From Naegleria gruberi (Eukaryota): DNA of 64,000 nucleotides. A model generated the notes under the pieces. It worked only from the letters and a program-made list of their open reading frames with translations, had not been told where the DNA came from and made no database searches. Within the stretch, counting starts at the first letter, position 1. Every line of letters starts with the position of its first letter. Of this stretch, positions 12,948 to 63,938 are shown piece after piece. The position numbers and the translations under genes were made by a program. The stretch is from the NCBI GenBank assembly GCA_000004985.1, contig GG738888.1. One strand, written 5' to 3'.

Positions 12948-15839
12948 ATGTCTGACAACGAATCCGACTATGAAGAAGAAAATTACGACGAGGAAGAGGA
13001 GGAAGAAGAAGAAGATAACTATGAACCTGCTCAAAAAAAATCTAAATCATCAAAAAGCATGTTTATTGATGACGCTGCTCAGGAAGATGATGAAGACGAA
13101 GAAGAAGAGGGTGAAGAAGACTTTCACCAACAATATAGAAAGACATCGGTTTCCGATCTTCCACAACCATCTGCACAAAGAAAAAACATTATGGCTGATA
13201 TCGAAAGAAGATATGCAGGTGCTGATGACGAGGATGAGGATGATGAAGTATATAACGATACTGTAAGAATTGCTCAAAAACAACAACCAAATCTTCCAAC
13301 ACCTGAGGATCCAAAATTATTTTTAGTTAAATGTAAACAAGGAAAGGAAAAGGAAGCTGTCATGACATTATTACAAAAACACTTCAGTGTGAAACATTCA
13401 CCAAACAAAAAAGATCGTCTTCTAATTACATCAGCTTTGTTTATTGAAGGTTTCAAAGGAAAGATCTATATTGAAGCTCAAAAAGAAGTTCACGTAAGAC
13501 ATGCTATTGAAGGACTTAGTCATTTGATTTATGAAAGTGGAATTAAACTTGTACCATTGAAGGAAATGCCTGATGTCTTGAATGTGAACCAACTCTCAAC
13601 AAAAATTCAAGATATTTCTGTTGGAAAATGGGTGAGAGTTAAAAGAGGTACATACAAAGGAGATATCGGAAAAGTCCATGATGTGGATAAAGCTAGAGGA
13701 TATTGTGTAGTTGTACTTGTACCAAGAATTGATTATACTGGACAAAGTTCTGGTAAACGTCCACCACAAAGACTCTTTAATAAGGAACTTCTTCCACAAA
13801 CTGAACAAGAAAAAGTTGAAGATGCAAAGGATCAAATTACTTATAGTGTTTATCAAGGAAACAAATTCCATGACGGTTACGTATATAAGCACATTCACTT
13901 AAAGTCTTTGGAAACAAAGGATATCATACCAACTAATAGTGAACTTCAAATTTATTATCAAAATGAAAGTCCAAGTACTGCTATTTCGTTATCAAGAAAA
14001 ACATATTTCAAGAGAGGTGATAATGTACGTGTTATCAAGGGTGAATTGAGAGGAATGGTTGGTCAAATTACAAATATTGATGAAGAATCTCAAGTAATTA
14101 CAATGCTTCCAAAGAGTAATGATATTAACACACCACTTCAATTTACAAGCAATCAACTTCAAAAACACTTTTCTGTAGGTCAATTCTGTAGAGTTGTAGG
14201 TACTGGTAAATGGGAAGGAGAATCTGGTTACATTGTCAGAGTTAGTGAAGATGATGATAGTATTGTCTTGTATAACGAAGTAAGAAGATGTGACATGAAT
14301 GTGTACTCGAATGAAATCCAAGAAACAACTACTGTTGCCTCAGAGAACAAACTTGGTAACTATTCATTATTCGACATGGTTCGTCTTGATTCACAAACTA
14401 TGGGTGTTATTGTAAAATTTGATTCTAATAAGAACACATCTGATGCTCAAGTTCAAGTTGTAGATAATAATGATGTACTAAGACAAGTTAAATTACAAGA
14501 ACTAGGAAGAAAGCAAAATACTAAAGCTGGATACAAAGCTCCTGATAAGAGTAAGCATCTCGTTGGTATTAGTGATACAGTTAAAGTCATTGATCCAACA
14601 TCTGTACATTTTGGAAGAGAAGGCGTTGTTAAGCAAGTTTTTAGAAAATTCCTTTTCTGTTGTTCTATTGATTTAATTCAAAATGCTGGTATTTTTGCAG
14701 TCCCAGCATCTCATTGTGAATTGAGAGGAGCAAGAAACAGACAAATACTGAACTCTCAAACATCTGGTGCTGCTGGTAATACTACAAATAAGAGAGGGTT
14801 CGTATTTACAAAGAGAAGAAGAAACCATCCATTCACAAACAAGACAGCTATTATCACTAAAGGTCCATACAAAGGATACTTGGGTATTGTTAAGGATGCC
14901 ACTGATACCACTGCTCGTATTGAACTTCACTCTCAGAATAAGATTATTAACGTTGATATTTCTTGGATTTCTTTGCAAGACGAAAAGGAAAAGAGAAAGG
15001 ATACTTATCAAACAGTTTCTACACCTTATCACAATTCTGGGGCTGCTACACCATTCATGCCACCTTCAACTCCTTGGGACAATAGAGATTCATCCAAAAC
15101 TCCAATCCATACATCCCTTGGTCATGAAACTCCAATCCATCGTCCAGAAACACCATCCCGTAGTGGTGATGCTTGGAATCCTCGTAAACCAAATACTCCA
15201 ATGCACGATTGGCAAGAAACAACAACTCCAGGAGGTGTACCATCCACTCCACATGATAATTATACAGTCAATACTCCAGGTATTGGCATGAATCCAATCA
15301 CTCCAGCTTACACTCCTGGTGTAGGTGCTCCAATCACTCCTGGAATTACCACTCCAAATACTCCACATGGAGACAACTCATACTCATACCACCCAATTAC
15401 ACCTGGTATTCAAACTCCAAATCCAGTTACACCTCACGAATCTTACAATTCAATTTCAACTCCAGGAGGTGTATTCCAAACTCCAAATCCTGACATGTAT
15501 GGTTATGGTTCAGTTGTTACACCTGGAATGGGACATTCAGTTTCCACACCTTATGGTACACCTGGTATGATGCATCACCCAACTACTCCAGGAATGATGC
15601 ACCATCCAACTACTCCTGGCTTTATTGGTTATCCTGGTATGCACCCAATGACACCTGGTCTTATGAATCCAACTACTCCAGGTATGCATCCAATGACTCC
15701 AGGTATGATGAATCCTACAACACCTGGAATGCATCCAATGACCCCTGGAATGATGCACCCATCCACTCCAGGTATGCATCCAATGACACCAGGTTCAAAT
15801 CCAATTACTCCAGGAAATCATTATGACGATGACGAGTAA
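12948..15839 (+). CDS. SUPT5H: Transcription elongation factor SPT5, single exon
   Basis: Acidic N-terminus, an NGN domain ([21 protein letters not shown]) and multiple KOW motifs ([60 protein letters not shown]). The C-terminal repeat region is P/T-rich, with about 12 Met-rich repeats of TPGM(H/M)P(M/T). The first ATG is at 12948. Confidence 0.9.
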
Positions 15840-15892
15840 ACTCTCCAATTTTATTGTTCAATAACTAAGATAATCTAGAATAAATCTTTAAA

Positions 15893-17081: not shown

Positions 17082-17084
17082 TTA

Positions 17085-22135: not shown

Positions 22136-22885
22136 ATGTCTGCAATAGTTTCCATGTTGGCCGATGTTTTGATGATTGTCGGACCATGTGCTGGTTATAT
22201 TGATCAAATTAGACAATTTGTGAATACTAAATCAAGTGGCGGATTCAGCAAATTCATCAGTTTGATTTTGCTTATTGCTAACATTCTGTATGTTTGATGA
22301 TGATATAATACTCATGTTGGAATTGTTAATATTTCGGATGATAATAGTCGTTGCTTTTTTAGATATTACAAAGAATTTGAGAATGTTCTTCTCTATCAAT
22401 CTATCTTGATGATTGCATGTCAAGTTGTTTTGATTTTCTTCTGTATTCGTTTTCGTTCAACTGAAAATGGAACAATCTTTACCAGCCCTGTCCGTAGTTT
22501 TTGGAATTGGATTAATATTTCTAGTTATTTGACATTCTTGATTCTCTTTTCATTGGTTGTTGGACTTGTTTCATTGATTTTACATCCAATTTTTGGAGAT
22601 TTTTATGGTGAATTACTTGGAGGTGCTGCTTTATTTACTGAAGCTGTTTTGGCTGTTCCACAAGTTTATAGAAATTATAGGGAAGGATCTGCTGAGGGCT
22701 TGTCATGGGTTTTACTTGGAACTTTCTTCCTTGGTGATGCTTATAAGACTGGTTACTTTTATCATAAGGGATTGCCAATTCAATTCGTATTATGTGGTTC
22801 TTTCCAACTCTTTGTTGACTTTGTTCTTGCTTTCCAAGTTTTAACTTACAGGAAAAAGCGTGGTGGAGGATTATTGAGCTATTAA
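22136..22885 (+). CDS. PQ-loop repeat membrane protein (SLC66/PQLC family), 2 exons
   Basis: Exons are 22136..22287 and 22363..22885, with an intron GTATGT...TTTTAG (75 nt) in phase 2. Two PQ-loop-like segments are present (PCAGYIDQIRQF and AVPQVYRNYREGSAEGLS), with 6-7 TM helices. Confidence 0.65.
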
Positions 22886-22926
22886 ACTTTCATTTATATT
22901 ATCAGTAATAATCATTGTAATCAATT

Positions 22927-24339
22927 TTAATAGAAACATAAAAATTGACCTTGTTCTGGAATGGTAACAGCACAATCAAGTGAAGCTTCCTTAAGTCCAC
23001 TTTGCAATTGTTTTTGAATGAGTACTTGGGCACTTTCACTGAATGTGCTTGTGAAAGTAGGTTTGATATGTGTCACTACAATAGTGAGAGAGCTTAATTT
23101 GTCCCCTTTCAAGTTACTCAACTCTTTCAGTATGAGAACTAAATCCTTTGGTCTCATATGACCGTACAACTCTGAATCTTGAGCTTCATTTGTAAAGCTC
23201 ACCTCAATAATAATTACCCTCAATTTACTAATGTCAACAGCGTTCCACACAGCAGTGATCTTTGATCTCCAATCACAAGAAGAATATGTGTTTGATCCAG
23301 TGTCAGAGAAGAAAATGAGTTGAACATTATCATGTTCAAATAGGAAGGCAGCTGATGGGAGAGAGTGGCAGAGTGAGAAAGATTTCACAGTTGTATCTGA
23401 AAATAAATAATTACTTCCAATAAGTTGGTGGGTATCAATTTTAGGATTAAATGAATTTGGACTCATATAAATTAAATCATTGACATAGTAATTAATATTG
23501 TGTTCAATAGGTTGATATTGATACCATGGTGTGTACTTTGGAATATCTGGCCATACCTTATCATTAAACAAGCTCGAATTAATAGCACTAATAACCTCAG
23601 TAGATGTAATTATCCTCTTACTGGATGGTATTTGATAGTCCTTGGTTGAGGTATCCATAAAGGTTCCTTCAGGTGATGAAATGACCAAGCCAGATAGATG
23701 ATCCAAATGTGCATGTCCAATAAAGTACCCCAAAATGAACTGTTTCATAATATAACCAGACAATGATAAGTAATATTGATTCTTCTCGCTTGTAGTTTTC
23801 AGACTAGACATATCCACAGATGATAACCATGATGGTAAGTTAGGGAATAACAATTTGATAAATGTTTGATTATTCGTCTCACTACTAACAAACTTGTAAA
23901 TTCCAGATAATAGAATTCCAGCATCCAAACTAATGAAATTTCCTCTACTAGAATTTGTTCTCAATAATACATTTGTCAAATCCGATTCCAACAATCCACC
24001 TTCTCTACCAGAAATCACCAATCCAAAAGTACATTTATCATTCAGGGTACTTTTAATTTCATCTTCGGAGGCTCCAGCAGCTGCAGCTGCCTCCATCCCT
24101 AGAGGAATTGCTGTAGCTAAAGTGAAGGCTATTGTAACAATGGCAATTCCTACCAAGCCTAACACCAATATTGCTTTTGATTTCTATTGAGCATAATCGA
24201 TTTGGTGGTTAAAATTATCCACATTTTGATATCAATTATAACAGTCATGATCATTAGATAATAATAACAATCATACATTTTCTTGTTTCCTTCTATTGAG
24301 TAAATGTTCTTCAAATTCCGCATCCTCCAAATCAGTCAT
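22927..24339 (-). CDS. Class II 3',5'-cyclic-nucleotide phosphodiesterase (PdsA/Pde1 type), probably 2 exons with an N-terminal membrane anchor
   Basis: The main exon is 22927..24183 and contains the class II PDE metal-binding signature GYFIGHAHLDHLSGLVISS. The hydrophobic segment AILVLGLVGIAIVTIAFTLATAI precedes the first in-frame ATG. An upstream exon 24276..24339 (MTDLEDAEFEEHLLNRRKQEN) joins in frame through GTATGA...CAATAG (92 nt). That join would make it a type II signal anchor. Confidence 0.75.
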
Positions 24340-34488: not shown

Positions 34489-34606
34489 GACTACGGCCAT
34501 ATCACGATGAATGCACCTCATCCCGTCCGATTTGAGAAGTTAAGCATCGTCGAGCCACATCAGTACTGAGGTTGGAGACAACTTGGGAACCTGTGGTGCT
34601 GTAGTC
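34489..34606 (+). rRNA. 5S ribosomal RNA gene (118 nt), solitary copy
   Basis: GACTACGGCCATATCACGATGAATGCACCTCATCCCGTCCGATTTGAGAAGTTAAGCATCGTCGAGCCACATCAGTACTGAGGTTGGAGACAACTTGGGAACCTGTGGTGCTGTAGTC carries the 5S hallmarks: helix I ends GACUACGGC/GCUGUAGUC, CCGUCCGAUnnnGAAGUUAAGC in loop B/helix III, and GGGAAC...GGUGCUGUAG at the 3' end. It is followed by T5. Confidence 0.85.
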
Positions 34607-34611
34607 TTTTT
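34607..34611 (+). terminator. Pol III terminator (T5) of the 5S gene
   Basis: TTTTT lies immediately 3' of the 5S helix I closing strand. Confidence 0.6.
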
Positions 34612-35283: not shown

Positions 35284-35354
35284 TCGGGTGTGGTATAGTG
35301 GTAGCATTCCAGACTGTCACTCTGGCGACCCGGGTTCAATTCCCGGCACTCGAG
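35284..35354 (+). tRNA. tRNA-Asp (anticodon GTC)
   Basis: The cloverleaf is acceptor TCGGGTG/CACTCGA (one G-U pair), D-loop AGTGGTAG, anticodon stem CCAGA/TCTGG with loop CTGTCAC (GTC), and T-arm CCGGG-TTCAATT-CCCGG. The discriminator is G and CCA is not encoded. It is near-identical in layout to eukaryotic tRNA-Asp-GTC. T5 follows 5 nt downstream. Confidence 0.9.
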
Positions 35355-36733: not shown

Positions 36734-38365
36734 ATGCAAACAAGCAAATTGTTATCAACATCGAGGATTTTCCTTCTCGGATCAAGCAAATTATTTACTT
36801 GTGGTTCTAGAGTTGTTATTAGTCAACAACCGATTTTTCAATCAACAAGACCATTTAGTACTCAATTGAATAAGTTATGCTCGGAATCATCAATAAGAAA
36901 ATCCAAGCCTTCGTTCAAGAAGGAAAAATCCTTTGGAGCATCATCATCGGAAAAGAAGAATAAACCAATCAATATGGAAAAGAAAGATTTTCAGAAAAAC
37001 AAGGTTGCACCATCAACAATAGAAAAGAAAGAAAAGAAATTAACCTATTCACCAGAGGAGAAGAGTCACTACTTTCAACAAATTATATTTCCTTTAAGAA
37101 AAGCATTGAAAGAAAGAAATATTGAAAAGTGTTTATGGTTTTTTGAAAGTGAAGCACCAAAATATTTAGTGAGCATTCCAATTCAAGAAACCAATGAAAT
37201 GTTAGTTCTTTTGGGTGGTGTTGGTAATTTCAAAAAAGCTTATGAGATGTACTCTAAAGTTTTGGAAAAGTATCAAAGTAGTGGTGGAGCCAAACCTGAT
37301 ATTAACACTGTTGAGAGTTTGTTCTTTGCTGCCAAACAAAATAGAGATTTATCATCATTGAATATGTTGAAAAGATTGGAGGTAGTATTGTTGGACGACA
37401 TGGAAGCTCTTAATCTTAAATTGAATAATAGAATTTTCCACGATTTGATTGCTGTTATATTATATGGACTTAGGGGTTCACATAGTGCTGATTTAAAGTC
37501 AGCTCTCAATGGAGAAGAAGTAAGAGGAACTCCATACTTGGAATTAACATCTAAAACTATTTTGGAATTATATAACAAACTCACTAATAAGACCAAGTTT
37601 GTACATACTACAATGATTCAATATCTCCAAAAAATGGGTGATGTTGAATATATTTTCCATATCTATGATGAATTGAAGAAGGGAGAAAATTCTGTTGCTT
37701 TAGATACTACATTTTACAATACTTTAATTATGTGTTTAATTTCAAACAAATTTGAAACCTATGACGATGTTCTTTTCATGTTTGAAGTCTACAGAGAAAT
37801 GGTTGAAGTTGGTGGATGTAAACCTTCGTGTCACACATATAACATGATGCTTTCTGCTCTCAAAGTAGCTCATGAAAAAAACATGTTTGAAAATAGAATT
37901 GAGTACAAAGAAAAAGTTTATGGCCTCTATAAGGAAATTAATTTCAGATTGAATCCAATTGAAATAGATCCTCCACTATTGAACCTTCTTTCTCAATTGT
38001 TGAGCTATATAGGAAAGTTAAAAGAGTCTAGAGAGTTAATTAACGCACAACCTTTAAATATTACACCTTTAACCGTTCAATTTTTATTGAGAAAGGCCGT
38101 TACAGTTGAATGTGAATCTATTGGGGACTTTAAGGCTAATGTAGCTCCATTACTTGGCTTGCTTTCTGATAAGGGGTATAAGATGACTTCTGAATTTTTG
38201 AACTTTTTGGTATTGAGAATGTTAGATACCTACAAACCACTCAGAATTATTGAAATACTTGTTCAATATGTATACGAACATTTTGGAGTTAAAATAACGA
38301 TAGAACCAAGAACAGTCGAAAAGAATAAGATGGATTTCATTAAAAAATTAAGAGAGACCGTTTAA
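36734..38365 (+). CDS. Mitochondrial helical-repeat (PPR-like) protein
   Basis: 543-aa ORF with an S/K-rich presequence. It contains repeated 35-aa helical units of the form Y..LI.......D..L.F..M...G..P...TYN.ML. Confidence 0.35.
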   Translation: MQTSKLLSTSRIFLLGSSKLFTCGSRVVISQQPIFQSTRPFSTQLNKLCSESSIRKSKPSFKKEKSFGASSSEKKNKPINMEKKDFQKNKVAPSTIEKKEKKLTYSPEEKSHYFQQIIFPLRKALKERNIEKCLWFFESEAPKYLVSIPIQETNEMLVLLGGVGNFKKAYEMYSKVLEKYQSSGGAKPDINTVESLFFAAKQNRDLSSLNMLKRLEVVLLDDMEALNLKLNNRIFHDLIAVILYGLRGSHSADLKSALNGEEVRGTPYLELTSKTILELYNKLTNKTKFVHTTMIQYLQKMGDVEYIFHIYDELKKGENSVALDTTFYNTLIMCLISNKFETYDDVLFMFEVYREMVEVGGCKPSCHTYNMMLSALKVAHEKNMFENRIEYKEKVYGLYKEINFRLNPIEIDPPLLNLLSQLLSYIGKLKESRELINAQPLNITPLTVQFLLRKAVTVECESIGDFKANVAPLLGLLSDKGYKMTSEFLNFLVLRMLDTYKPLRIIEILVQYVYEHFGVKITIEPRTVEKNKMDFIKKLRETV

Positions 38366-41208
38366 TATTCGTCATCAGAATCAGCTGCATGTCTAGACAA
38401 TAAAGCGTCGAAATCGTCCTCGACAACATTTGATTTTCTGCTTGGGAAATTGTAAGTACTTCTTTGTGGAATTACAGGGCTAGCATCATCGTCATTTTCA
38501 GAATCATGATGTAAGAAAGAGGTTGGAGAAAGAGGTTTGGAAATTGCTGGTTGGTAGGTAGTAGTTGGTTGAGGAGTATCTTCGTCATCAGAATCATCTG
38601 CAAACTTGTTCAAAATAGAGTCCAAACTACCTGGTTCTGGTTTAGAAGGAGCCAATTCAACTACTGGTTGACTGATTGGAGACTTTCTTGGAGAAATCTT
38701 AGTTTCTGATGAACGTCTTCTATCGTTATTTGTTACAACTGGTTTTGGTGGTTCATCATCTTCAGAGTCAGAATCAGCAAACTTCATTCTGGCAGCCATT
38801 TGATCCAAATGGATTTCTCCTGAATTGACTGCTGAAGTAACAGGCTTAGTTGCAGCAGGTTGAGAACTGAACACTGAGGAAGACATTTTCTTTTCTTTAG
38901 GAGATTCCTCATCGTCTCCTCCCCAATGTTTATCCATCAAAGAGTCAAAAAGCTTTGCATTTTCACGTTGAATTCTTTGTCTTTCCTCTTCTTCCTTTCT
39001 CAATCTTTCTTCTTCTCTTCTCAATTCTTCTTCTTCTTCTTGTATTCTGAGCAAGTTTTCCTTTTCTTGTTCATCCATAAACAAATTATTTTGATCTACA
39101 ACATTTGCTGGAACCTCATTCAAAATATTTTGAATAACATTTGGTTTCTTTGGATCTTGTGTTTGTGGTTTCTTTACAGTTGTTACAGGAGTTGGTTGAT
39201 TAAATGTTGGAGTTGGTTGGTTGAATTGAGGAGTAGGTGGATTAAAGGTTTGAGGAGGGTTAAAAGGTGGAGATGTAATTGCACTTGTTGGTGAGTCTTG
39301 AGGAATAAGTTGTGGCATATCAGGTACAGTGCTACCTGCCTTTCTATATTCATCATACCTGATCATTTCCATCATTTCAATCATGGTTTTCATGGCCTTT
39401 AAATATTTAGTAAATTGGTCAACATTCAAAGATGTTTGCACGGCAATTGGAGAAATTGAAGGCATTATTCTACATGCTATAATCTTAGTCAATCCTGGAT
39501 CATTTCTCTTTTGTAAAAGTTTAGAAATCTTAAGATAAACACCAACACAGGTAATTAAAAGTGGTGCAGAGAGTTGAGCACCAGATCTTTCAGCTCCATA
39601 AAGAGGAGCAAGAGATGATTCTAAAATTGGTATAATTGTAGCAGATATTACAGAGGTTTCAAAATGTGGTAAAATTTTGCCAAGACAAACAATACCATTA
39701 ATTCTTACACTTTGATTGTTAGTATTGTGACAAATCAACTCAATAGGTGGCAATAAAGTAGATTTGAAATCATCATAGGTCATTCTCTCTTCGTTCAAAC
39801 ATTCTTCACATCTCTTCATGGCTTCATTTTGAATTTCTGGGAACTTGCTATCTAGACATCTAATCAAGAATGGAATTAAACAAAGTCTATGGTCTTCATC
39901 AGTTGTCTTATTCCACATCAAGTTGAAACTTTCCAGAATTTTCAATGGAATTTTTGCAGGAGTGCTTTGCATCAATGCAAACTTTGAAAGAGTAGGCAAA
40001 ACTTGCTTACTAAATTCCTTGACTGTCATTCTTTCACTCAATACAAGTACGTTTGGCAATGCATGTAATAACATCTTTAAATCTTTGCATTCATTCAATA
40101 ATGGAGGTAAAATTTTAGAAAAGACAATACTGTTGGAAAATCCTTCATCTGGAATGTCTTCAACTCCATTAATCAATTGTTGAGGTTTAGGTGCTTTAAG
40201 CATAGGAGCAAGTGTAGACAAGAATTGTGCCTTCTTGACAGGCTCTCTAAGCTCCATACTGGCAAGATATCTCAATGCCCTAACTTCATTTCCGAATAAT
40301 AGTTCACAATTTGAAAGAAGGAAATGTGAGGTAGGTCTTTCCTGGTGTTTCAATGAGCATGAACTCAATAATGATTCTCTGATTTCTTGTGGAAGCTTGT
40401 TAATGTTCTTTACAACTTCATGCAATCTAGAAACGTTATTGGTGTATGCATTAATATCTTGATCAGATTCCAAAATAGAATGTGATTTTTCAAGAAGTAT
40501 TTGCAAATAAATAAGGGTAAAAGAAAAAATATCGGAAGAATTACAAGGATTTTGTTCTAACACATATTCAGGTGCTGTATAATCCAATGATGGAAGGAAA
40601 TCTCTTTTTTGAAAGTTTCTTTTGAAGAGAGTCGGTGCAGAGTTTGTTTCCGTAGATCCTAATGCTGTAAATGAAAAGTGAAATCCACTAATTTTCCAAT
40701 GACCATCAGTTGTAATATAAATATTATTTGGATGCAATCCAGCGTGAGTTAGTTTTGCATTTTGATGGCAAAAAGTTAAAGCTTCCATTACTTGACACAT
40801 TCCATACTTTAATTCCAACTTGGTTAAACGATAATTCTTCATCATTGGTGATACGTCAGGAATGTTTTGATGATTTCTAAACACTAAATTGTTCAATGAT
40901 CCTAGTATCGGTTCGGTTATCATCGCCAACATTGTTTTTGTTTCAAAGAATTGTTGTTGGGGAGACAGTATTAGAGGATGCCTGAGTTTTTGTAGCATTA
41001 GGCTTTCATTCTTGAAGTAATTTATCACAGTTTGAAGATTATTTCTTCCATAGACAGCTTCAATATCTTTAAAAGCACAACAAAACACAGAAACTTCCTC
41101 TCTTGTTTGTCTGTGAGTTCCGTTATGTATTCTCCAAAGGCAAAAAGGACCACCAGTTGCAAATGGTTTTTCTCCAATAGTATAATCCTTTTCTAATTGA
41201 TTGCCCAT
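38362..41208 (-). CDS. SCY1-like pseudokinase (SCYL1/SCYL2 family) with HEAT repeats and an acidic coiled-coil C-terminus
   Basis: 948-aa ORF. The N-terminal kinase-like domain (MGNQLEK..., HAGLHPNNIYITTDGHWKISGFHF) has degenerate catalytic motifs. HEAT-like repeats follow, then an E/R-rich coiled coil and a PT-rich region. Its stop codon overlaps the stop of the convergent gene 36734..38365 (TTAA). Confidence 0.65.
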   Translation of the reverse strand: MGNQLEKDYTIGEKPFATGGPFCLWRIHNGTHRQTREEVSVFCCAFKDIEAVYGRNNLQTVINYFKNESLMLQKLRHPLILSPQQQFFETKTMLAMITEPILGSLNNLVFRNHQNIPDVSPMMKNYRLTKLELKYGMCQVMEALTFCHQNAKLTHAGLHPNNIYITTDGHWKISGFHFSFTALGSTETNSAPTLFKRNFQKRDFLPSLDYTAPEYVLEQNPCNSSDIFSFTLIYLQILLEKSHSILESDQDINAYTNNVSRLHEVVKNINKLPQEIRESLLSSCSLKHQERPTSHFLLSNCELLFGNEVRALRYLASMELREPVKKAQFLSTLAPMLKAPKPQQLINGVEDIPDEGFSNSIVFSKILPPLLNECKDLKMLLHALPNVLVLSERMTVKEFSKQVLPTLSKFALMQSTPAKIPLKILESFNLMWNKTTDEDHRLCLIPFLIRCLDSKFPEIQNEAMKRCEECLNEERMTYDDFKSTLLPPIELICHNTNNQSVRINGIVCLGKILPHFETSVISATIIPILESSLAPLYGAERSGAQLSAPLLITCVGVYLKISKLLQKRNDPGLTKIIACRIMPSISPIAVQTSLNVDQFTKYLKAMKTMIEMMEMIRYDEYRKAGSTVPDMPQLIPQDSPTSAITSPPFNPPQTFNPPTPQFNQPTPTFNQPTPVTTVKKPQTQDPKKPNVIQNILNEVPANVVDQNNLFMDEQEKENLLRIQEEEEELRREEERLRKEEEERQRIQRENAKLFDSLMDKHWGGDDEESPKEKKMSSSVFSSQPAATKPVTSAVNSGEIHLDQMAARMKFADSDSEDDEPPKPVVTNNDRRRSSETKISPRKSPISQPVVELAPSKPEPGSLDSILNKFADDSDDEDTPQPTTTYQPAISKPLSPTSFLHHDSENDDDASPVIPQRSTYNFPSRKSNVVEDDFDALLSRHAADSDDEY

Positions 41209-57424: not shown

Positions 57425-58339
57425 ATGTACAAAAACGACTTTATTGGAGAGGCAACAAGAATGTTGTTCGGCAAGAGATCGAGTGTATCGAGCACACATT
57501 CGGAACAATCCCAACCATCACAACAACAACAACACGATATTAAACAAGCAATGAATGTTGTTGAACAAATAACTAATTTAATGTATACTATTGATCAGGC
57601 TGTTCAACGTATTCAATTATCAATTTCTATCATTCCTTCGATAGATGCCTTGAAGGGTGATATTGCAGAGGGATTATCAGAATCGGAGAAGAAAATTGGA
57701 GAGTTGGAAAGATATTGTGAGGAGAGAATTAAACAACCAACTGGTACTGATGCTGATGAAATTGGATTAGGAAGAATATTGGAAAAAACAACAAACTTGA
57801 AGAAACAATTATCTAGTTTGCAAGTGAAATTTAGAAAGGCTGTACAAATATATAGTAATAAGGAAAATGAATCGAAATTAAAGAGAGAAAAATTGGTAGG
57901 ATTTGAAAATGTTCAAATATCAAGAAAGTCATCACAAAATATTAAACAACAATCGAGACAATCTAGAAAAGTAACAGATTCACTCAAAAGAACAAAAGCC
58001 ATTGTTTCATCAAATTTAGAACGAACTTCATACTCTATGGAAAAATTATCGGAACAAGCATCAATTTTTGAGAGAGCTATCAATACTCAAGAAGGATATC
58101 AAGACAAAGTGAAACAATCAACCATGCTTATCAAGGATTTGAAATGGAAGGAAAGAAGAGATCACTTTATCACTATTGGATGCTTTTTATTCTACTTATT
58201 GGTTGTATTGATAGTATTTAATCATAGAATTCCAGTCTTTACACTGACCTATTATTTTGGAAATTTAATATTTGGAATATTTGGAGGTAGTACAGCTGCA
58301 ACTGACTCAATTATTACAAACGAACCAACGATAAATTAA
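57425..58339 (+). CDS. Tail-anchored coiled-coil protein, Sec20/BNIP1-like ER SNARE candidate
   Basis: 304 aa. A Q/S-rich N-terminus and central coiled coils are followed by ...SSNLERTSYSMEKLSEQASIFERAINTQEGYQDKVKQSTMLIKDLKWKERRDHFITIGCFLFYLLVVLIVF, that is a membrane-proximal helix plus a single C-terminal TM as in Sec20. Confidence 0.35.
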   Translation: MYKNDFIGEATRMLFGKRSSVSSTHSEQSQPSQQQQHDIKQAMNVVEQITNLMYTIDQAVQRIQLSISIIPSIDALKGDIAEGLSESEKKIGELERYCEERIKQPTGTDADEIGLGRILEKTTNLKKQLSSLQVKFRKAVQIYSNKENESKLKREKLVGFENVQISRKSSQNIKQQSRQSRKVTDSLKRTKAIVSSNLERTSYSMEKLSEQASIFERAINTQEGYQDKVKQSTMLIKDLKWKERRDHFITIGCFLFYLLVVLIVFNHRIPVFTLTYYFGNLIFGIFGGSTAATDSIITNEPTIN

Positions 58340-58340
58340 T

Positions 58341-59663
58341 TTATTTCTTCTTCTTAGTTTGAGGAGCAACAGTTTCCTTCTTTTCGAACAAACGTTCAAA
58401 TTGTTGAATTTTCTCTTGTTTTGCCAAAATTTCAAAGAACGAGTCCAGTATTTCACCATCCATCATCTTATCCAAACCAAATTGTGAAAATGAAATTCTG
58501 TGGTCAGTAATTCTATCTTGAGGGAAGTTATAAGTTCTAATCTTGTCTGATCTATCACCTGAACCAATCTGTTCTTTTCTTTCAGATGACATTTTCTGAA
58601 TTTTCTCGTCTTGTTGCTTTTGATAGAGTCTCGAATGCAAAATCTTGAAAGCTTTTTCCTTATTTCTATGTTGTGACCTTTCATCAGCAATACAAACAAC
58701 AGTACCAGTTGGAATGTGGGTTAATCTGACAGCAGAGTCAGTTGTGTTAACATGCTGACCACCAGCACCTGATGCTCTCATAGTATCAATTCTGACATCT
58801 GCAAGATTAATCTTGACATCTGCTTCTGTAACTTCTGGTAAAACCACAATAGATGCTGATGAAGTGTGGACTCTACCTTGTGATTCTGTTGCAGGTACTC
58901 TTTGAACTCGGTGAACTCCACTTTCAAATTTCATACATCCATAAACTCCCAATCCTTCATCGTCTCCATACGATGATCCAGAAATGAGTGCAATTCCTTC
59001 CTTACATCCTTCACCTCCATTATTTGCACTCAAACTCAAAACTTCAAATTTCCAACCTCTTTTAGTTGCATAAAATTCATACATTTTAAATAATTCCATA
59101 GCAAAAAGAGAAGCTTCATCACCTCCTGTTCCAGGTCTAATTTCAATAATAGCATTTGAATTTGGTGAAATTTGATGGTCTTCTGTATCAGATACTGGAG
59201 CATTCAAAAGAACACTAATTAATCTTTCTTGAGTTTTCGAATATTCAATTTCAGTTTCAGAATATTCTTCCTTAGCTAATTGCTTTAATTCTGGATCCTT
59301 TTCCGTATTCATCATTTCTTTGAGTTGTGTAAGTTGAGTTTTTAAATTTTCATACTTGTCTTTTAATTCAACAACATTGTTCAACCATTTTAATTCAACA
59401 AATTGTGATTGTTTTGTTGCTTGACCTGAATAGACAGATTGCGATAATACTTGATGTTTTTCTTGTGCTTTGGCAAGAAATTGAGCAACTTGTTCATTGA
59501 CTGCGAAAGTATACTTTCCGATGGACTCATCATTATCTTCCGAATTGTATTTTATACGTGTAGTGTGAAATCCAACACTTTTAGAGAATGCTGATGATGA
59601 TTTTAATATTCTACTATTGTGTGAATAAAATTGTAATGCTGTCTTTTGAAGGTTTCGTAACAT
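58341..59663 (-). CDS. MTRF1L: Mitochondrial peptide chain release factor 1 (MTRF1/MTRF1L-like)
   Basis: 440 aa. The PCRF and RF-1 domains carry the universal GGQ motif (RASGAGGQHVNTTDSAVRLTHIPTGTVV...RSQHRNKEKA), with an N-terminal presequence-like extension. Confidence 0.8.
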   Translation of the reverse strand: MLRNLQKTALQFYSHNSRILKSSSAFSKSVGFHTTRIKYNSEDNDESIGKYTFAVNEQVAQFLAKAQEKHQVLSQSVYSGQATKQSQFVELKWLNNVVELKDKYENLKTQLTQLKEMMNTEKDPELKQLAKEEYSETEIEYSKTQERLISVLLNAPVSDTEDHQISPNSNAIIEIRPGTGGDEASLFAMELFKMYEFYATKRGWKFEVLSLSANNGGEGCKEGIALISGSSYGDDEGLGVYGCMKFESGVHRVQRVPATESQGRVHTSSASIVVLPEVTEADVKINLADVRIDTMRASGAGGQHVNTTDSAVRLTHIPTGTVVCIADERSQHRNKEKAFKILHSRLYQKQQDEKIQKMSSERKEQIGSGDRSDKIRTYNFPQDRITDHRISFSQFGLDKMMDGEILDSFFEILAKQEKIQQFERLFEKKETVAPQTKKKK

Positions 59664-59696
59664 TTTTTTACATAATATTTATTTTTATTTTTTCAT

Positions 59697-62600
59697 TTAA
59701 TAATTTGAATACTTGCTCTTTGAGCGAGAGGATGAACCCAAATCTTCATAAGGATCATAATCAAACTCAGTCGATCTGTTTAAAATTTCTTCAACAGTCA
59801 TTCTCTTATTTGGTCTACCAGGACTAGTAATCTTTCTTGCTGGACTGCTTGTACTCATACTCAAACTGTTTTGGAGTTCGGCAAGGTGAGCTCTGGCATT
59901 CTTAAGTTCCTTATCTAATTCTTGGACTTCTCTGCTAGTCTTGGCATTTGATTCGTTCAAAGTCTTCATAATCTTATGACTGGCTGACAAATCTCTTTCA
60001 ACCTTTTTCTTGACAGATCCAAAAGCGGATGTTGGAGTTTTAGAAATTGAGGAATAAGCTGATGGAGTTGCCTTTGGAGTTTGTTCTTCTTTTTGAAGAG
60101 TAGTATTCAATGTTGGTTTGCTAGCAAATCCTGATGTATACTTAGAGGTGGTGTTGGTAGAAGAAATACTAGTATTAGTAAGAGAGTCAGAGTCACTGAA
60201 AATAGAAGCATCCTTTGGCTTCTTGAAAAGCTTTTGTCTGAGGTCTGAAACCATATTTTCATACTTGCTCTTTTCTCTTTCTAATTCTGAAAGCATTTCA
60301 CTGGTCTTCTTAGATGTATTGAAAAGCTTGCTACACTCGTCTCTCTTCAATTCAAGTTCTCTTGAGGCAGAATCTAACTTTTGAGTCTTTTCAGAGAGTT
60401 GATCTTGGAGTTCTTGAAGGTCGGATCTATATTGGTTAAGTTGGCTTAATTGAGATTCAAATTCTTGCTTGAATTGTTCCTTTTCGAATTGAACAGTAGT
60501 ATAGTTTGATCTGAGTTTTTCAACTTCCTTCTTCAACATGTCGAACTTTTCAGGTTCAATAAGATTGAGATTTTCTTCCTCTAGATCATTGATTCTATTT
60601 TCCATGAAAGATACCAATTCAGATTTCTTCTTGATGATTTCTTCCATTTCTTCAGCTCTCTTGGAAACTCTTTCAACTTCTTCTGTCAATTGGACACACT
60701 TCTTTTGCAAACTGCCCTTTTCAGACTTCAATTCTCTCAAAGACTTGACAACACCAACAGTTGTTTGTTGAACAACACTAAGACCTCTCTTTTGAGGGCT
60801 TGAATGTACAATGGTCTTTAGTTGCTTCTTGATTGGAGTACTGAAAGAATCATTTCCGTTATATTTGTATCCAGTAATGAGTTGTCTGTTAATGGTGGCT
60901 TGGAGTCCGTCGTGGAGACTTCTCATCAATGACAGATCTTCTCTTGGTTCGTCAAATTCATTATCAAGTTGACCAACAAGTTGGAGGTAAGCATGAATGG
61001 ATCCCTTGTATTCGTCCATTGGAATTTGCAATTCTCTATTATCATTGATAGCTTCAGGGGCCAACAAACCTAATCTGTCCCCACCAACAGTGTAATAGAG
61101 AGTTGATCCTTCCTTTTCTTCTCTCTTTTGAAGAAGAAGCTTGTTGAATCTGTTACCAATAATTACAGCCAAAACAGCAGCTCTGAAAGATGTCTTTGGT
61201 TTTTCAGAAGAGTATTCTCTTGGGAATTCAAATTCAGAAACAACTTCAAATTCAGTTGAAAGTGACTTGACAGTTTCATAAACACCTTTGAGGAGTCTTT
61301 CATATTGTCTAAGTTGAGATTTGAGAACAACCTTGTGCATCTTGAGGTCATCAATTCTATCCTTCATTGGTCTGATACCTCTGGCCAACAACTTCAATCC
61401 ATTATGAAGCTTGTTTTGATCAATTTGAGAGTCTCTAAGCTCAGTCTTCAAAACTTCAACAATCATAGTAGATTTCTTCAACTTTCCAGTAGTATCTGAC
61501 AATTGTTCTTGAGTTTCACGAAGAGCTTCTTCTAGTTCTTTAACCTTTTCAGTGTAATCAATTTCGAGCATTTCAATTTGATGTTCAAATTTGCTTCTTT
61601 GCTCATCAATTTCACCTTGATAGTTCTTTTCTAATTCGCTTCTTTCGGATTCATACTTTTCCATATTGGCCTTCATTGTCTTGTTTGCTTCTTCAAGTCT
61701 GGCATTAAGATCGGCAATTTTTTCCTTTTGAGCAGCAGCTTCCTTCTTCAATGATTCTCTTTCAACAAGGTGAGCAGTAACTTGTTCAGAGAATAAAGAT
61801 TGGAATGTTTCCCAGCTGATAGGTTCGTCACTATCAGAGCCTTGTGGTCTTCCTCTGAGTGGTGATCCGTTTCTTCTATCATTTGTTGGTGTATCCTTCA
61901 ACATCTTGTACAAAGAATAGACATATCTCAATCTGTTCTTTTCTTCTTCTTGGTGAGAGTCAAGGAGTTCTTCCAATTCATTAACAGAATCTTCGAGTTC
62001 TTGCTTTTGTTCCTTAAGAGCTCTGTTGACCTTTTCACCATCAGATAATTGCTTCTTAAGATTGATCAATTCCTTGTAAGTATCAGAGTGATCATGATTC
62101 AAGTTTTGGAAGTTGCTTGACAAACCATCGAGTTCATCTTGCAAAATCTTACACTTGTCTCTACTTACAATGAGATCATCAAGAGCGTCGAGAACCTTAG
62201 ATTTAAGAGCCTTATAATTTGGTTTGACAGCTTCAAGAGCCTTCTTGTTGAGTTGAGAATCATCTTCATTTCTAGAATATTCGTGACCTTCCAAGACATG
62301 TTCAACAGTCTTCATCATTGCATAGAAATCAGAAGCCAATGATCCATGAGCAGAACCGACTTCGCTTTCCTTAAGATCTCTTTGAGAAACAGCCGAATTG
62401 TATTGTTCAGTGATTCTTTCAGATGTATCCTTATAGTGGGAAAGTTCTCTTTGGAGGAAATCATTTTCTGCCTTAACTTTTGAAAGTTCATCAAGTCTAT
62501 CCTTCAATTGATCATTTTCATCCTTCAAATCAGCAATATAAGCTTCCAAGTTGTCATTGATTTCGTTCATCTTTCTCAACTCTTCAGTAACCAATTGCTT

Positions 62601-63938
62601 TCCGTGATTTTCCTTATCAAGTTGATTTTGAACTTCTTCCAATCTCTTACGAGTATTTTGAATTTCATTCTTGAGTTCAGGAATAATACTGAGATCCTTC
62701 TTCAATTCAGAAACCAAAGTTTCTTCAACGTTCAATTCAGTGACTCTATCTTGCAAAGAGAGAATATTGTTTTGAAGTTGGCTGAGGGTTGAACCTTGTT
62801 CTTGCTTTTCCATTTCAAGTCTATCAATCTTTCTCTTCAGCTTGTCAATTTCAAGGTCCTTATCTTCAGAAACCTTTTGTCCCTTTTTGATTCTCATATC
62901 GGATTCATTAATTCTCTCAGTAAGCTCGGATCTAGTATTAAGAAGGATTTCAATTTGTTCTTGAAGCTTTTCAGCCAATTCCTTTTGACTCTTAGTCTTC
63001 TTATCTTGAAGCTCGTTTTGTTCTCTCAAAGAGATTGACAAATCTTGTAATTCTTTTTCGAGATTTGCTCTTTGATGTGCAGAAATCGCAATTTCTTCTC
63101 TTGATTGATCGAGTTCCTTCTTGAGTTGGGAAATTTCAACATCTCTCTTACCCTTTTCTTCAGTCAGAACTTGTTGAAGTTGAAGTAATTCTTCTCTCAA
63201 TTGCTTTTCAACACCCTTTTGTGTTGTAATACGATCATTAGCTTCTGATTCAAGTCTCTTCATTTCTTCTTCCTTACCTCTGGAACGTTCTCTTAGGATA
63301 CTAACTTCGTTTCTTAATTGTACAGTATCATCCCTATATTGAAGGAGATCATCGACTTGTCTTTGCAAATCATTAATAATTTTTTGTTTTTTCTGATTTT
63401 CAAACTTAATTTGTTGGACCTGGGTTAATTGTTGTCTTAAGAGTCTAACAGAATCATCGTCATCACCACCCTTCTCCATATTTAGTTTGCTCTTCTCTAA
63501 CAGCTTTTGGAATTCTCTAAATTCAGTTTCTTCATCTTGTATATCTTGTTGATATTGTTGATGTTGTTGCTGTTGTTGAAGCTCGGCCTCCTCGGAAAGT
63601 TTTCTATAGATCTTCTCACCAGTTGGGCTAAGGAATTTGGCAAAATCATCAGAAGGTTGTTCTCTCATAGAATCTCTAGGGTCTTCTTCTATCATTGATG
63701 ATGATGTTTGTCTTCTAGAAGTACTGTTTGATCTTCTTTTTGGAGTTTTATAATAAGAGTTTGAGCCTCTAATAGGAGATTCTTTAAGGGAAGTTGGGCT
63801 TGATACTGGGTCAATCATTCTTGATGATGCCTTAGTTGTGCTAATAGACATTGAACGATTATTAGTATTATTTGCGTTTGGAGTAAAACTCGTTCGCCTC
63901 TTAGGGGTTGATTCATACATGAAAGAGTCTTGATCCAT
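59697..63938 (-). CDS. Very large coiled-coil protein (1413 aa), single exon
   Basis: Uninterrupted 4.2-kb ORF. The N-terminus is S/T/R-rich, followed by about 1000 aa of heptad-repeat E/K/L/Q-rich sequence and a short globular C-terminus. Family unknown. Confidence 0.5.
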   Translation of the reverse strand: MDQDSFMYESTPKRRTSFTPNANNTNNRSMSISTTKASSRMIDPVSSPTSLKESPIRGSNSYYKTPKRRSNSTSRRQTSSSMIEEDPRDSMREQPSDDFAKFLSPTGEKIYRKLSEEAELQQQQQHQQYQQDIQDEETEFREFQKLLEKSKLNMEKGGDDDDSVRLLRQQLTQVQQIKFENQKKQKIINDLQRQVDDLLQYRDDTVQLRNEVSILRERSRGKEEEMKRLESEANDRITTQKGVEKQLREELLQLQQVLTEEKGKRDVEISQLKKELDQSREEIAISAHQRANLEKELQDLSISLREQNELQDKKTKSQKELAEKLQEQIEILLNTRSELTERINESDMRIKKGQKVSEDKDLEIDKLKRKIDRLEMEKQEQGSTLSQLQNNILSLQDRVTELNVEETLVSELKKDLSIIPELKNEIQNTRKRLEEVQNQLDKENHGKQLVTEELRKMNEINDNLEAYIADLKDENDQLKDRLDELSKVKAENDFLQRELSHYKDTSERITEQYNSAVSQRDLKESEVGSAHGSLASDFYAMMKTVEHVLEGHEYSRNEDDSQLNKKALEAVKPNYKALKSKVLDALDDLIVSRDKCKILQDELDGLSSNFQNLNHDHSDTYKELINLKKQLSDGEKVNRALKEQKQELEDSVNELEELLDSHQEEEKNRLRYVYSLYKMLKDTPTNDRRNGSPLRGRPQGSDSDEPISWETFQSLFSEQVTAHLVERESLKKEAAAQKEKIADLNARLEEANKTMKANMEKYESERSELEKNYQGEIDEQRSKFEHQIEMLEIDYTEKVKELEEALRETQEQLSDTTGKLKKSTMIVEVLKTELRDSQIDQNKLHNGLKLLARGIRPMKDRIDDLKMHKVVLKSQLRQYERLLKGVYETVKSLSTEFEVVSEFEFPREYSSEKPKTSFRAAVLAVIIGNRFNKLLLQKREEKEGSTLYYTVGGDRLGLLAPEAINDNRELQIPMDEYKGSIHAYLQLVGQLDNEFDEPREDLSLMRSLHDGLQATINRQLITGYKYNGNDSFSTPIKKQLKTIVHSSPQKRGLSVVQQTTVGVVKSLRELKSEKGSLQKKCVQLTEEVERVSKRAEEMEEIIKKKSELVSFMENRINDLEEENLNLIEPEKFDMLKKEVEKLRSNYTTVQFEKEQFKQEFESQLSQLNQYRSDLQELQDQLSEKTQKLDSASRELELKRDECSKLFNTSKKTSEMLSELEREKSKYENMVSDLRQKLFKKPKDASIFSDSDSLTNTSISSTNTTSKYTSGFASKPTLNTTLQKEEQTPKATPSAYSSISKTPTSAFGSVKKKVERDLSASHKIMKTLNESNAKTSREVQELDKELKNARAHLAELQNSLSMSTSSPARKITSPGRPNKRMTVEEILNRSTEFDYDPYEDLGSSSRSKSKYSNY

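What the first reader, a model, noticed from the sequence alone, without database searches (positions are those of the whole stretch)
38355..38372. Convergent genes whose stop codons physically overlap (TTAA): PPR-like gene (+) and SCY1-like pseudokinase (-)
The plus-strand CDS ends with TAA at 38363-38365. The minus-strand CDS ends with TAA encoded by 38362-38364. The two coding regions therefore share 2 nt and leave no intergenic DNA. Each gene's 3' UTR and polyadenylation signal must lie inside the other's coding region, which implies obligatory antisense overlap of the two mRNAs.
Basis: seen in the sequence. Interest (0 to 1): 0.5.

Follow-up and report, generated by a model that had tools for sequence, protein, structure and literature searches.

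The report
Two Naegleria genes sharing interlocked stop codons
Two real, conserved genes of the amoeba Naegleria gruberi run into each other tail-to-tail so tightly that their stop codons interlock (TTAA), but several other gene pairs in this very compact stretch of genome sit almost as close, so it is ordinary here rather than a special device.

Summary
The + ORF (36734-38365, PPR-like) ends with TAA at 38363-38365. The - ORF (38362-41208, SCY1-like pseudokinase) ends with TAA read from 38364 down to 38362. The stop codons share 2 nt and the CDS intervals share 4 nt (TTAA).

The window is Naegleria gruberi. Orthologues in N. fowleri, N. lovaniensis, an unnamed relative and Willaertia magna align to the last residues of both proteins, so no hidden C-terminal intron rescues a spacer. 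The public N. gruberi model of the PPR gene does invoke a 65-nt intron and an early stop, but the 153 residues it discards are as conserved as the core, so that model is probably wrong.

The pair is convergent in all five species, with spacing from -4 to +10 nt. W. magna has the same TTAA overlap.

It is not special to this pair. In the window, 3 of 10 convergent ORF pairs lie within 3 nt and 7 of 10 within 53 nt. Published data give N. gruberi a median 3' UTR of 39 nt, AAUAAA signals and "dual-use" stop codons.

Predicted, not shown: the PPR mRNA uses AATAAA at 38399-38404 inside SCY1L codons, and SCY1L uses ATTAAA spanning its own stop. The mRNAs would then overlap by about 75-85 nt.

Low novelty.

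The parts
36734..38365 (+). PPR-like protein gene: uninterrupted 543-codon CDS plus TAA stop
   Evidence: ORF. Pfam PPR_2 hit, E=7e-8, 32.9 bits against a cut-off of 30. Orthologues in N. fowleri (544 aa), N. lovaniensis (531 aa), an ENA contig species (524 aa) and the W. magna ORF align in frame to the last residue. The C-terminal 153 aa are 52-63% identical to orthologues, the same as the core at 50-60%.
38362..41208 (-). SCY1-like (SCYL2-type) pseudokinase gene: 948-codon CDS plus TAA stop
   Evidence: ORF. 100% identical over its full length to the NCBI N. gruberi predicted protein P0001, and homologues are named 'SCY1-like protein 2'. Pkinase hit E=7e-18. Aligned to an active kinase, HRD is HAG and DFG is SGF. 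The C-terminal motif FDxLLxxHxxDSDDE[YF] is conserved in 7 heteroloboseans.
38362..38365 (.). TTAA: the two interlocked stop codons (+ TAA 38363-38365; - TAA 38364->38362)
   Evidence: Read directly. W. magna has the same TTAA geometry at L002 8862-8865.
38361..38366 (-). ATTAAA hexamer containing the SCY1L stop codon: candidate 'dual-use' poly(A) signal (inferred)
   Evidence: Stop-spanning ATTAAA occurs at 6 of 41 ORF ends in the window against 1.3 expected (P=0.002), and 5 of those 6 lack AATAAA within 270 nt. Orthologues have AGTAAA (N. fowleri, N. lovaniensis) or canonical AATAAA (ENA species) at the same position. Caveat: PMC11529991 finds AUUAAA weaker than AAUAAA in N. gruberi.
38342..38357 (-). 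U-rich tract (ucucucuuaauuuuuu) 5-20 nt after the SCY1L stop: candidate downstream element or cleavage zone, antisense to PPR codons ...KKLRE (inferred)
   Evidence: Sequence. A U-rich element downstream of the poly(A) signal is described for N. gruberi in PMC11529991.
38399..38404 (+). AATAAA 34 nt after the PPR stop: candidate poly(A) signal of the PPR mRNA, lying antisense to SCY1L codons GCT TTA TTG (Ala-Leu-Leu of the conserved FDxLL motif) (inferred)
   Evidence: This offset (+33 in the script's count) falls in the window-wide cluster of first-AATAAA offsets (-9 to +39; 20 of 41 ORFs against 4 expected, P=2e-10). The chance of one falling there from antisense AATAAA density is about 8%.
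38429..38443 (+). U-rich tract (uuugauuuucugcuu) 25-40 nt after the AATAAA: candidate downstream element for PPR mRNA 3'-end formation (inferred)
   Evidence: Sequence. Element type as in PMC11529991.
38083..38088 (-). First canonical AATAAA downstream of the SCY1L stop (hexamer starts 274 nt after the stop, +273 in the script's count): the alternative poly(A) signal if ATTAAA is not used
37903..37967 (+). 65-nt GT...AG 'intron' of the public N. gruberi model (P0012, 410 aa), which shifts frame and stops near 38031: judged spurious
   Evidence: The 'intron' encodes YKEKVYGLYKEINFRLNPIEI, which is conserved in all orthologues. The downstream frame is conserved to the end.

Best explanation
This is a genuine tail-to-tail overlap of two conserved nuclear protein-coding genes of Naegleria gruberi. 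It is produced by genome compaction and not by a dedicated mechanism.

Convergent genes need no promoter between them. Naegleria mRNAs have ultrashort 3' UTRs, and their AAUAAA-type poly(A) signals often sit in or beside the stop codon. The spacer between convergent genes is therefore dispensable. Here it has shrunk to the geometric limit at which two stop codons interlock (TTAA) without any amino-acid codon being shared.

Each gene's 3'-end processing signals and 3' UTR are written in the last few dozen coding nucleotides of its partner.

Predicted (inferred):
- The PPR mRNA is cleaved about 15-20 nt after AATAAA 38399-38404, giving a 3' UTR of about 54-59 nt.
- The SCY1L mRNA is cleaved about 15-20 nt after the stop-spanning ATTAAA, giving a 3' UTR of about 16-21 nt.
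- The two mature mRNAs are then complementary over roughly 75-85 nt (about 38341-38424).

Shown: the overlap itself, the authenticity of both C-termini, conservation of the abutting arrangement in five species, and how commonly convergent pairs abut in this window.

Inferred: the exact poly(A) sites and any consequence of the RNA overlap.
For: Geometry.

Organism and gene identity.

C-termini are genuine. The SCY1L tail DSDDE[YF] is conserved. The PPR C-terminus aligns to the last residue in 4 other species, and its last 153 aa are as conserved as the core.

The abutting arrangement is conserved. CDS spacing is -4 (N. gruberi), -4 (W. magna ORF), +4 (N. lovaniensis), +9 (ENA species) and +10 (N. 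fowleri).

Other pairs in the window show the same arrangement:
- The 10 convergent ORF pairs have gaps of -4, 1, 3, 24, 41, 43, 53, 162, 295 and 796 nt. Their median is 42 nt, against 512 nt for divergent and 298 nt for tandem pairs.
- The 1-nt and 3-nt pairs are real genes: Sec20 with RF-1, and Rpp14 with a RING-finger protein.
- The Sec20/RF-1 1-nt gap is also present in N. lovaniensis.

Poly(A) biology. PMC11529991 reports for N. gruberi the AAUAAA signal 15-20 nt before cleavage, a median 3' UTR of 39 nt, 11-13% dual-use stops with a median 22-nt UTR, and AAUAAA depleted in CDS. In the window, AATAAA occurs 4 times on the sense strand and 85 times on the antisense strand of 45.8 kb of ORFs. 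It starts within -9..+45 of 20 of 41 stops (4 expected). Stop-spanning AATAAA occurs 7 times and ATTAAA 6 times, against about 1.4 expected for each.
Against: - No transcript data for these two genes could be accessed. The supplement of PMC11529991 is not held and N. gruberi contigs are not in the look-up index. The poly(A) sites and the extent of mRNA overlap are therefore predictions.
- The public N. gruberi model ends the PPR gene 330 nt earlier through a GT-AG intron. If that splice were real and dominant, the CDS overlap would vanish.
- ATTAAA is reported as a weak discriminator in N. gruberi.
- No UGUA lies upstream of either candidate signal.
- Window statistics rest on ORF proxies (110 aa or longer), not curated gene models, and on only 10 convergent pairs.
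Confidence: 0.8

Rival explanations
1. There is no real overlap. The PPR gene has a 65-nt C-terminal intron (37903-37967) as in the public N. gruberi model, shifts frame, and terminates near 38031. That leaves about 330 nt of 3' UTR or spacer before the SCY1L stop.
For: The public model P0012 (410 aa) has exactly this structure, and the proposed intron has GT...AG ends.
Against: - The 'intron' and everything after it are conserved as protein in the unspliced frame in N. fowleri, N. lovaniensis, the ENA species and W. magna. Identity is 52-63% over the last 153 aa, equal to the core.
- The spliced frame gives an unconserved 20-aa tail.
- Orthologues are modelled without this intron.
- Other models at abutting junctions also stop short of the conserved ORF end: W. 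magna P0016 and N. lovaniensis Sec20. Gene callers may therefore avoid overlaps.
Confidence: 0.05
2. The overlap is a selected regulatory device. The complementary 3' ends of the two mRNAs form duplexes, trigger RNAi, or cause transcriptional interference, and this couples expression of the PPR and SCY1L genes reciprocally. The model is yeast convergent pairs or plant nat-siRNA pairs.
For: - The pair has stayed convergent and within 10 nt in five species spanning Naegleria and Willaertia, despite rearrangements on both flanks.
- In budding yeasts, convergent pairs with short spacers form mRNA duplexes and keep their orientation preferentially (PMC6993858; PMC3900390).
Against: - The same abutting geometry occurs between unrelated genes three times in 64 kb, so nothing singles out this pair.
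- Conservation is equally explained by the absence of any DNA in which a rearrangement breakpoint could fall without damaging a gene.
- The poly(A) signal positions are not conserved. The PPR signal moved from its own last codons into SCY1L codons in N. gruberi.
- No functional link between the two proteins is evident.
- Not tested experimentally.
Confidence: 0.1
3. The overlap is real, but the SCY1L transcript ignores the stop-spanning ATTAAA. It runs about 300 nt antisense into the PPR coding region, to the first canonical AATAAA (38088->38083). The antisense overlap is then several hundred nucleotides rather than tens.
For: PMC11529991 finds AAUAAA to be the main determinant of N. gruberi poly(A) sites and AUUAAA to be common in coding regions. 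The first canonical hexamer on the SCY1L strand starts 274 nt after the stop (+273 in the script's count).
Against: - Stop-spanning ATTAAA is about 4.5-fold enriched at ORF ends in the window, and 5 of 6 such ORFs lack a nearby AATAAA.
- A U-rich tract follows immediately.
- The ENA species has canonical AATAAA at the same stop-spanning position, and N. fowleri and N. lovaniensis have AGTAAA there.
- The median 3' UTR in this organism is 39 nt.
Confidence: 0.2

Closest known systems
'Dual-use' stop codon / poly(A) signal and ultrashort 3' UTRs in Giardia and Naegleria gruberi (PMC11529991, Genome Res 2024)
   Same: Same organism and same 3'-end logic. The signal is AAUAAA-type, cleavage falls 15-20 nt downstream, the median 3' UTR is 39 nt, and stops are embedded in the hexamer. 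The window reproduces the sense-strand depletion of AATAAA and the stop-spanning hexamers.
   Different: In the passages I read, that paper does not discuss what lies downstream of the stop. Here the downstream DNA is the partner's coding sequence. The SCY1L hexamer is the AUUAAA variant, not AAUAAA. Actual 3' ends of these two genes were not available to me.
Convergent gene pairs with overlapping 3' UTRs / mRNA duplexes in budding yeasts (PMC3900390; PMC6993858)
   Same: Tail-to-tail genes whose mRNA 3' ends are complementary. A short spacer goes with conserved convergent orientation across species.
   Different: The yeast reports concern overlapping 3' UTRs of convergent pairs that still have an intergenic spacer. 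Here the coding intervals themselves touch or overlap, and each 3' UTR is the other gene's coding sequence. No duplex or regulatory effect has been shown in Naegleria.
Overlapping transcription in compacted eukaryotic genomes (microsporidia, nucleomorphs; from my own knowledge, e.g. Williams et al. 2005 PNAS; not retrieved here)
   Same: Loss of intergenic DNA forces transcripts to extend into neighbouring genes.
   Different: Naegleria is free-living, with a genome of about 41 Mb (from memory, not checked here) rather than a reduced parasite or endosymbiont genome. The compaction seen here is specific to convergent junctions: median gap 42 nt, against about 500 nt for divergent junctions.
4-nt convergent overlaps (TTAA/CTAA/TTAG/CTAG) of prokaryotic genes (from my own knowledge; not retrieved here)
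   Same: Identical geometry. It is the only way two opposite-strand stop codons can share bases, and it is the closest approach that shares no sense codons.
   Different: Prokaryotic 3' ends are made by terminators. Here cleavage and polyadenylation signals must be accommodated in coding DNA.

Membership tests
Tail-to-tail (convergent) overlapping protein-coding gene pair / cis-natural antisense pair | Two genes on opposite strands, 3' ends facing, with genomic intervals overlapping | tested here: met
   + CDS ends at 38365 and - CDS ends at 38362, a 4-nt overlap.
Tail-to-tail (convergent) overlapping protein-coding gene pair / cis-natural antisense pair | Both partners are real, selected protein-coding genes up to the overlapping ends | tested here: met
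   Both C-termini are conserved in 4-6 other heteroloboseans.
Tail-to-tail (convergent) overlapping protein-coding gene pair / cis-natural antisense pair | Mature transcripts of both genes exist and overlap in antisense | not testable with these tools
   No RNA data were accessible. This is inferred from zero spacer plus the published median 39-nt 3' UTR.
Tail-to-tail (convergent) overlapping protein-coding gene pair / cis-natural antisense pair | Reciprocal regulatory effect of the overlap | not testable with these tools
   Needs expression or perturbation data.
Dual-use stop codon / poly(A) signal (as defined in PMC11529991) | Stop codon lies inside the poly(A) signal hexamer | tested here: inconclusive
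   The SCY1L stop lies in ATTAAA (38366->38361), an AWUAAA variant and not the AAUAAA used in the paper's count. The variant is enriched at stops in the window (6 against 1.3 expected). The PPR stop is not in such a hexamer in N. gruberi. In the other four species the PPR gene has AATAAA ending 1 to 4 nt before its stop.
Dual-use stop codon / poly(A) signal (as defined in PMC11529991) | Cleavage site about 15-22 nt after the stop (ultrashort 3' UTR) | not testable with these tools
   Requires 3'-end mapping.
SCY1-like (SCYL) pseudokinase | Protein-kinase-like domain lacking catalytic residues | tested here: met
   Pkinase hit E=7e-18. Aligned to an active kinase, YRDLKPEN corresponds to HAGLHPNN and ADFG to SGFH, so both catalytic Asp residues are replaced by Gly.
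SCY1-like (SCYL) pseudokinase | Orthology to SCYL2 and a C-terminal helical (HEAT-like) region | tested here: inconclusive
   Homologues carry the JGI name 'SCY1-like protein 2', and there is a Balamuthia SCYL2 hit. The only helical-repeat evidence is a weak sub-threshold MMS19_C hit. No phylogeny or structure was done.
Pentatricopeptide-repeat (PPR) protein | PPR motifs detectable by profile | tested here: met
   PPR_2 scores 32.9 bits against a cut-off of 30, at residues 324-376. The N. fowleri orthologue is named for a PPR region of PRORP by UniRef. Only one repeat pair is detected, so 'PPR-like' is the right strength.

The most novel reading that the evidence does not exclude
Naegleria and its relatives may systematically place cleavage/polyadenylation signals and 3' UTRs inside the coding sequence of convergent neighbours. 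Codon choice at the C-terminus of one gene would then be co-selected as the other gene's poly(A) signal. An example is GCT-TTA-TTG, coding Ala-Leu-Leu in SCY1L and read as AATAAA for the PPR gene. The resulting short mRNA 3' duplexes would lock gene pairs together over long evolutionary times and might couple their expression. The PPR/SCY1L pair has abutted since before the Naegleria-Willaertia split and shows turnover of the signal's position, so it would be a clean example.
Probability: 0.12. Interest if true: 0.55.

Novelty: new member of a known kind. Interest (0 to 1): 0.25.

Why it matters
There are three practical points.

1. Annotation. The public N. gruberi model of the PPR gene loses 153 conserved C-terminal residues to a spurious intron. 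Two models in other species also stop short at abutting junctions: the W. magna PPR gene and the N. lovaniensis Sec20 gene. Gene callers that penalise overlaps may therefore mis-model 3' ends across Naegleria genomes.

2. Dual function of coding DNA. In this organism coding sequence routinely doubles as the neighbour's 3' UTR and poly(A) region. This constrains codon choice and matters for designing knock-ins, tags or recoded genes at C-termini.

3. Antisense overlap. If most convergent pairs behave this way, short antisense overlaps between mRNAs would be the norm in Naegleria. This is a cheap, testable question with existing direct-RNA data.

None of this is conceptually new for compact eukaryotic genomes.

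Tried and rejected
- Exact-protein look-ups of the N. gruberi SCY1L ORF, the PPR ORF and the public PPR model found no N. gruberi contig in the index. I could not see the official gene table or any transcript assembly.
- The supplementary 3'-UTR annotation of PMC11529991 is not held, so measured poly(A) sites for these genes could not be read.
- Literature searches for Naegleria gene overlap or intergenic distances returned nothing relevant. The two Naegleria genome papers I text-searched (N. fowleri; genus pangenome) do not discuss overlapping genes, intergenic regions or UTRs.
- One search failed on syntax.
- Acrasis kona has the SCY1L gene but a different neighbour about 1 kb away, so the pairing does not extend that far.
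- The control pair Sec20/RF-1 is not syntenic in W. magna.
- Canonical poly(A)-signal variants other than ATTAAA and AATGAA were scanned on both strands near the junction and not found. No UGUA lies upstream of either candidate signal.
- I considered a shared palindromic bidirectional terminator module and rejected it. Apart from TTAA itself, the three abutting junctions share no common palindrome.
- The ancestral state (overlap or small gap) cannot be resolved. Spacing is -4 in W. magna and N. gruberi and +4 to +10 in the other three, and the three Naegleria-like lineages are about equidistant.

Full report
**Observation.**
Window positions 38360-38367 read g-t-T-T-A-A-t-a.
- The + ORF 36734..38365 (543 aa) ends ...GTT TAA, with the stop at 38363-38365.
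- The - ORF 38362..41208 (948 aa) ends ...TAT TAA, with the stop read from 38364 down to 38362.
- The stops share 2 nt, and the CDS intervals including stops share 4 nt (TTAA).
- Each stop borrows the third base of the other gene's last sense codon. No sense codons overlap.

Only the phrase 'coding regions share 2 nt' needs this small correction.

**Origin and gene identity.**
- The - ORF is 100% identical over its full length to an NCBI 'predicted protein [Naegleria gruberi]'.
- It has a Pkinase domain. Aligned to an active kinase, the catalytic HRD Asp and the DFG Asp are both Gly (HAG, SGF). Homologues are named SCY1-like protein 2. 'SCY1-like pseudokinase' is therefore supported.
- The + ORF has a PPR_2 hit just above Pfam's cut-off, and its N. 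fowleri orthologue is named for a PPR region. 'PPR-like' is therefore fair.

**Are both stops real?**
- SCY1L: seven heterolobosean orthologues end with the same acidic tail, FDxLLxxHxxDSDDE(Y/F). The public N. gruberi model equals the ORF.
- PPR gene: the public N. gruberi model (P0012, 410 aa) does not equal the ORF. It removes 37903-37967 as a GT...AG intron, shifts frame and stops near 38031.
- The evidence goes against that model. The 'intron' encodes residues conserved in every orthologue. The unspliced frame aligns to the very last residue in N. fowleri (544 aa), N. lovaniensis (531 aa), an ENA metagenome species (524 aa) and the W. magna ORF. The 153 residues the model discards are 52-63% identical to orthologues, the same as the core at 50-60%.
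- I conclude that the uninterrupted 543-aa ORF is the gene and that the overlap is real.

**Conservation of the junction.**
The two genes are convergent neighbours in all five species. CDS spacing is:
- N. gruberi: -4 nt
- W. magna: -4 nt, with the same TTAA. The annotated W. magna model ends in another frame, 10 nt past the SCY1L stop, but it loses the conserved C-terminus.
- N. lovaniensis: +4 nt
- ENA species: +9 nt
- N. fowleri: +10 nt

. Flanking genes differ between species, and Acrasis kona lacks the pairing. Whether the overlap is ancestral cannot be resolved.

**Other convergent pairs in the window.**
I used non-nested ATG ORFs of 110 aa or longer as gene proxies (41 ORFs).
- The 10 convergent pairs have gaps of -4, 1, 3, 24, 41, 43, 53, 162, 295 and 796 nt. 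The median is 42 nt, against 512 nt for divergent and 298 nt for tandem pairs (Mann-Whitney P=0.001).
- Seven of 10 gaps are shorter than two median 3' UTRs (78 nt).
- The pairs with 3-nt and 1-nt gaps are real genes: Rpp14/Pop5 with a RING-finger protein, and Sec20 with a mitochondrial-type release factor.
- The Sec20/RF-1 1-nt gap is also found in N. lovaniensis, but not in W. magna.

The finding is thus one instance of a spacing that is common among convergent pairs in this window.

**How 3' ends are probably made.**
Published nanopore direct-RNA work on N. gruberi (PMC11529991) reports:
- AAUAAA as the signal, 15-20 nt before cleavage;
- a median 3' UTR of 39 nt;
- 11-13% of stops overlapping AAUAAA, with a median 22-nt UTR;
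- only 1238 AAUAAA in all coding sequences;
- UGUA upstream and U-rich downstream helper elements.

The window reproduces this:
- AATAAA occurs 4 times on the sense strand and 85 times on the antisense strand of 45.8 kb of ORFs.
- Its first occurrence starts within -9..+45 of the stop for 20 of 41 ORFs, against 4 expected (P=2e-10).
- Stop-spanning AATAAA (7) and ATTAAA (6) are each about 4-5-fold enriched. Five of the six ATTAAA cases lack a nearby AATAAA.

*PPR gene.* The first AATAAA is at 38399-38404, 34 nt after the stop (+33 in the script's count). It lies on the antisense of SCY1L codons GCT-TTA-TTG (Ala-Leu-Leu of the conserved FDxLL motif) and is followed by a U-rich tract. The predicted 3' UTR is about 54-59 nt.

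In the other four species the PPR gene carries AATAAA inside its own last codons (aaA-ATA-AAt...I-N), ending 1 to 4 nt before the stop. N. gruberi has lost that signal (its protein ends ...RETV) and instead has one in the neighbour's codons. This looks like turnover of the signal's position.

*SCY1L.* The stop lies inside ATTAAA (38366->38361) and is followed by a U-rich run. The same position holds AGTAAA in N. fowleri and N. lovaniensis, canonical AATAAA in the ENA species, and nothing in W. magna. The next canonical AATAAA starts 274 nt after the stop (+273 in the script's count).

I therefore favour a dual-use stop giving a UTR of about 16-21 nt. A longer read-in of about 300 nt remains possible.

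Under the favoured model the two mRNAs are complementary over roughly 75-85 nt. All of this paragraph's end positions are inference.

**Interpretation.**
The simplest account is compaction. No promoter is needed between convergent genes, 3' UTRs are tiny, and signals can sit in or beside stop codons. Deletions can therefore remove the spacer down to the TTAA limit. After that, no breakpoint can separate the genes without damaging one of them, which by itself explains long-term adjacency. A regulatory role for the RNA overlap, as reported for short-spacer convergent pairs in yeasts (PMC6993858, PMC3900390), is not excluded. Nothing singles this pair out.

**Novelty and score.**
Overlapping convergent genes and transcripts are well known in compact genomes, and ultrashort 3' UTRs with dual-use stops are published for this organism. 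New here are:
- this specific overlap, which is hidden by a faulty public model;
- its conservation as far as Willaertia;
- the local evidence that coding DNA serves as the neighbour's poly(A) region.

I rate it a new member of a known kind, interest 0.25.

Noticed in passing
window 37903-38031 (public model P0012) and L002 8862-8876 (W. magna model P0016); L007 5427-5678 (N. lovaniensis Sec20 model): Three public gene models at abutting convergent junctions stop short of, or deviate from, the conserved ORF end. The N. gruberi PPR model has a spurious 65-nt intron. The W. magna PPR model ends in another frame. The N. lovaniensis Sec20 model is truncated at 208 aa. This suggests a systematic gene-caller bias against overlaps in Naegleria annotations.
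   Followed up: partly
window 16395-18398 and 57425-59663: Two more abutting convergent gene pairs. Rpp14/Pop5 (+) and a RING-finger protein (-) are separated by 3 nt, and the + gene has AATAAA immediately before its TAA. Sec20 (+) and a mitochondrial-type release factor PCRF/RF-1 (-) are separated by 1 nt, and the - gene has an AA-TAA-A dual-use stop. The 1-nt gap is conserved in N. lovaniensis (L007 5425/5427).
   Followed up: partly
window 34489-34607 (+) and 35284-35354 (+): A 5S rRNA gene (Rfam 106 bits) and a tRNA-Asp(GTC) gene sit together in the gap upstream of the nitroreductase gene.
   Followed up: no
window 36959-36964 (+): One of only four sense-strand AATAAA hexamers in 45.8 kb of ORFs lies inside the PPR ORF (codons Asn76-Lys77), in the unconserved N-terminal part. 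It could mark a downstream true start codon or a tolerated premature signal.
   Followed up: no
window 59663-59697: Only 33 nt separate the stop of the upstream 1413-aa ORF (59697..63938, -) from the first ATG of the release-factor ORF (58341..59663, -). That upstream ORF's first AATAAA, 8 nt after its stop, lies within this interval. The public N. gruberi RF-1 model (P0017) is only 324 aa against a 440-aa ORF, so the start or 5' end of this gene is uncertain.
   Followed up: no
L001 7177-7648 (N. lovaniensis SCY1L): The N. lovaniensis SCY1L model (P0002, 897 aa) lacks about 30 residues (RINGIVCLGK...PILES) that are present in all other orthologues. The ORF is split there, which suggests a mispredicted intron or an assembly frameshift.
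   Followed up: no
window 22885-22927: In the convergent pair PQ-loop protein (+) and class-II cAMP phosphodiesterase (-), both genes have ATTAAA spanning their stop codons. They are separated by 41 nt, and neither has AATAAA within 290 nt.
   Followed up: no
window 15001-16000: A local composition anomaly at the 3' part of ORF 12948..15839: GC 0.41 against about 0.33 elsewhere, and GC skew -0.31.
   Followed up: no
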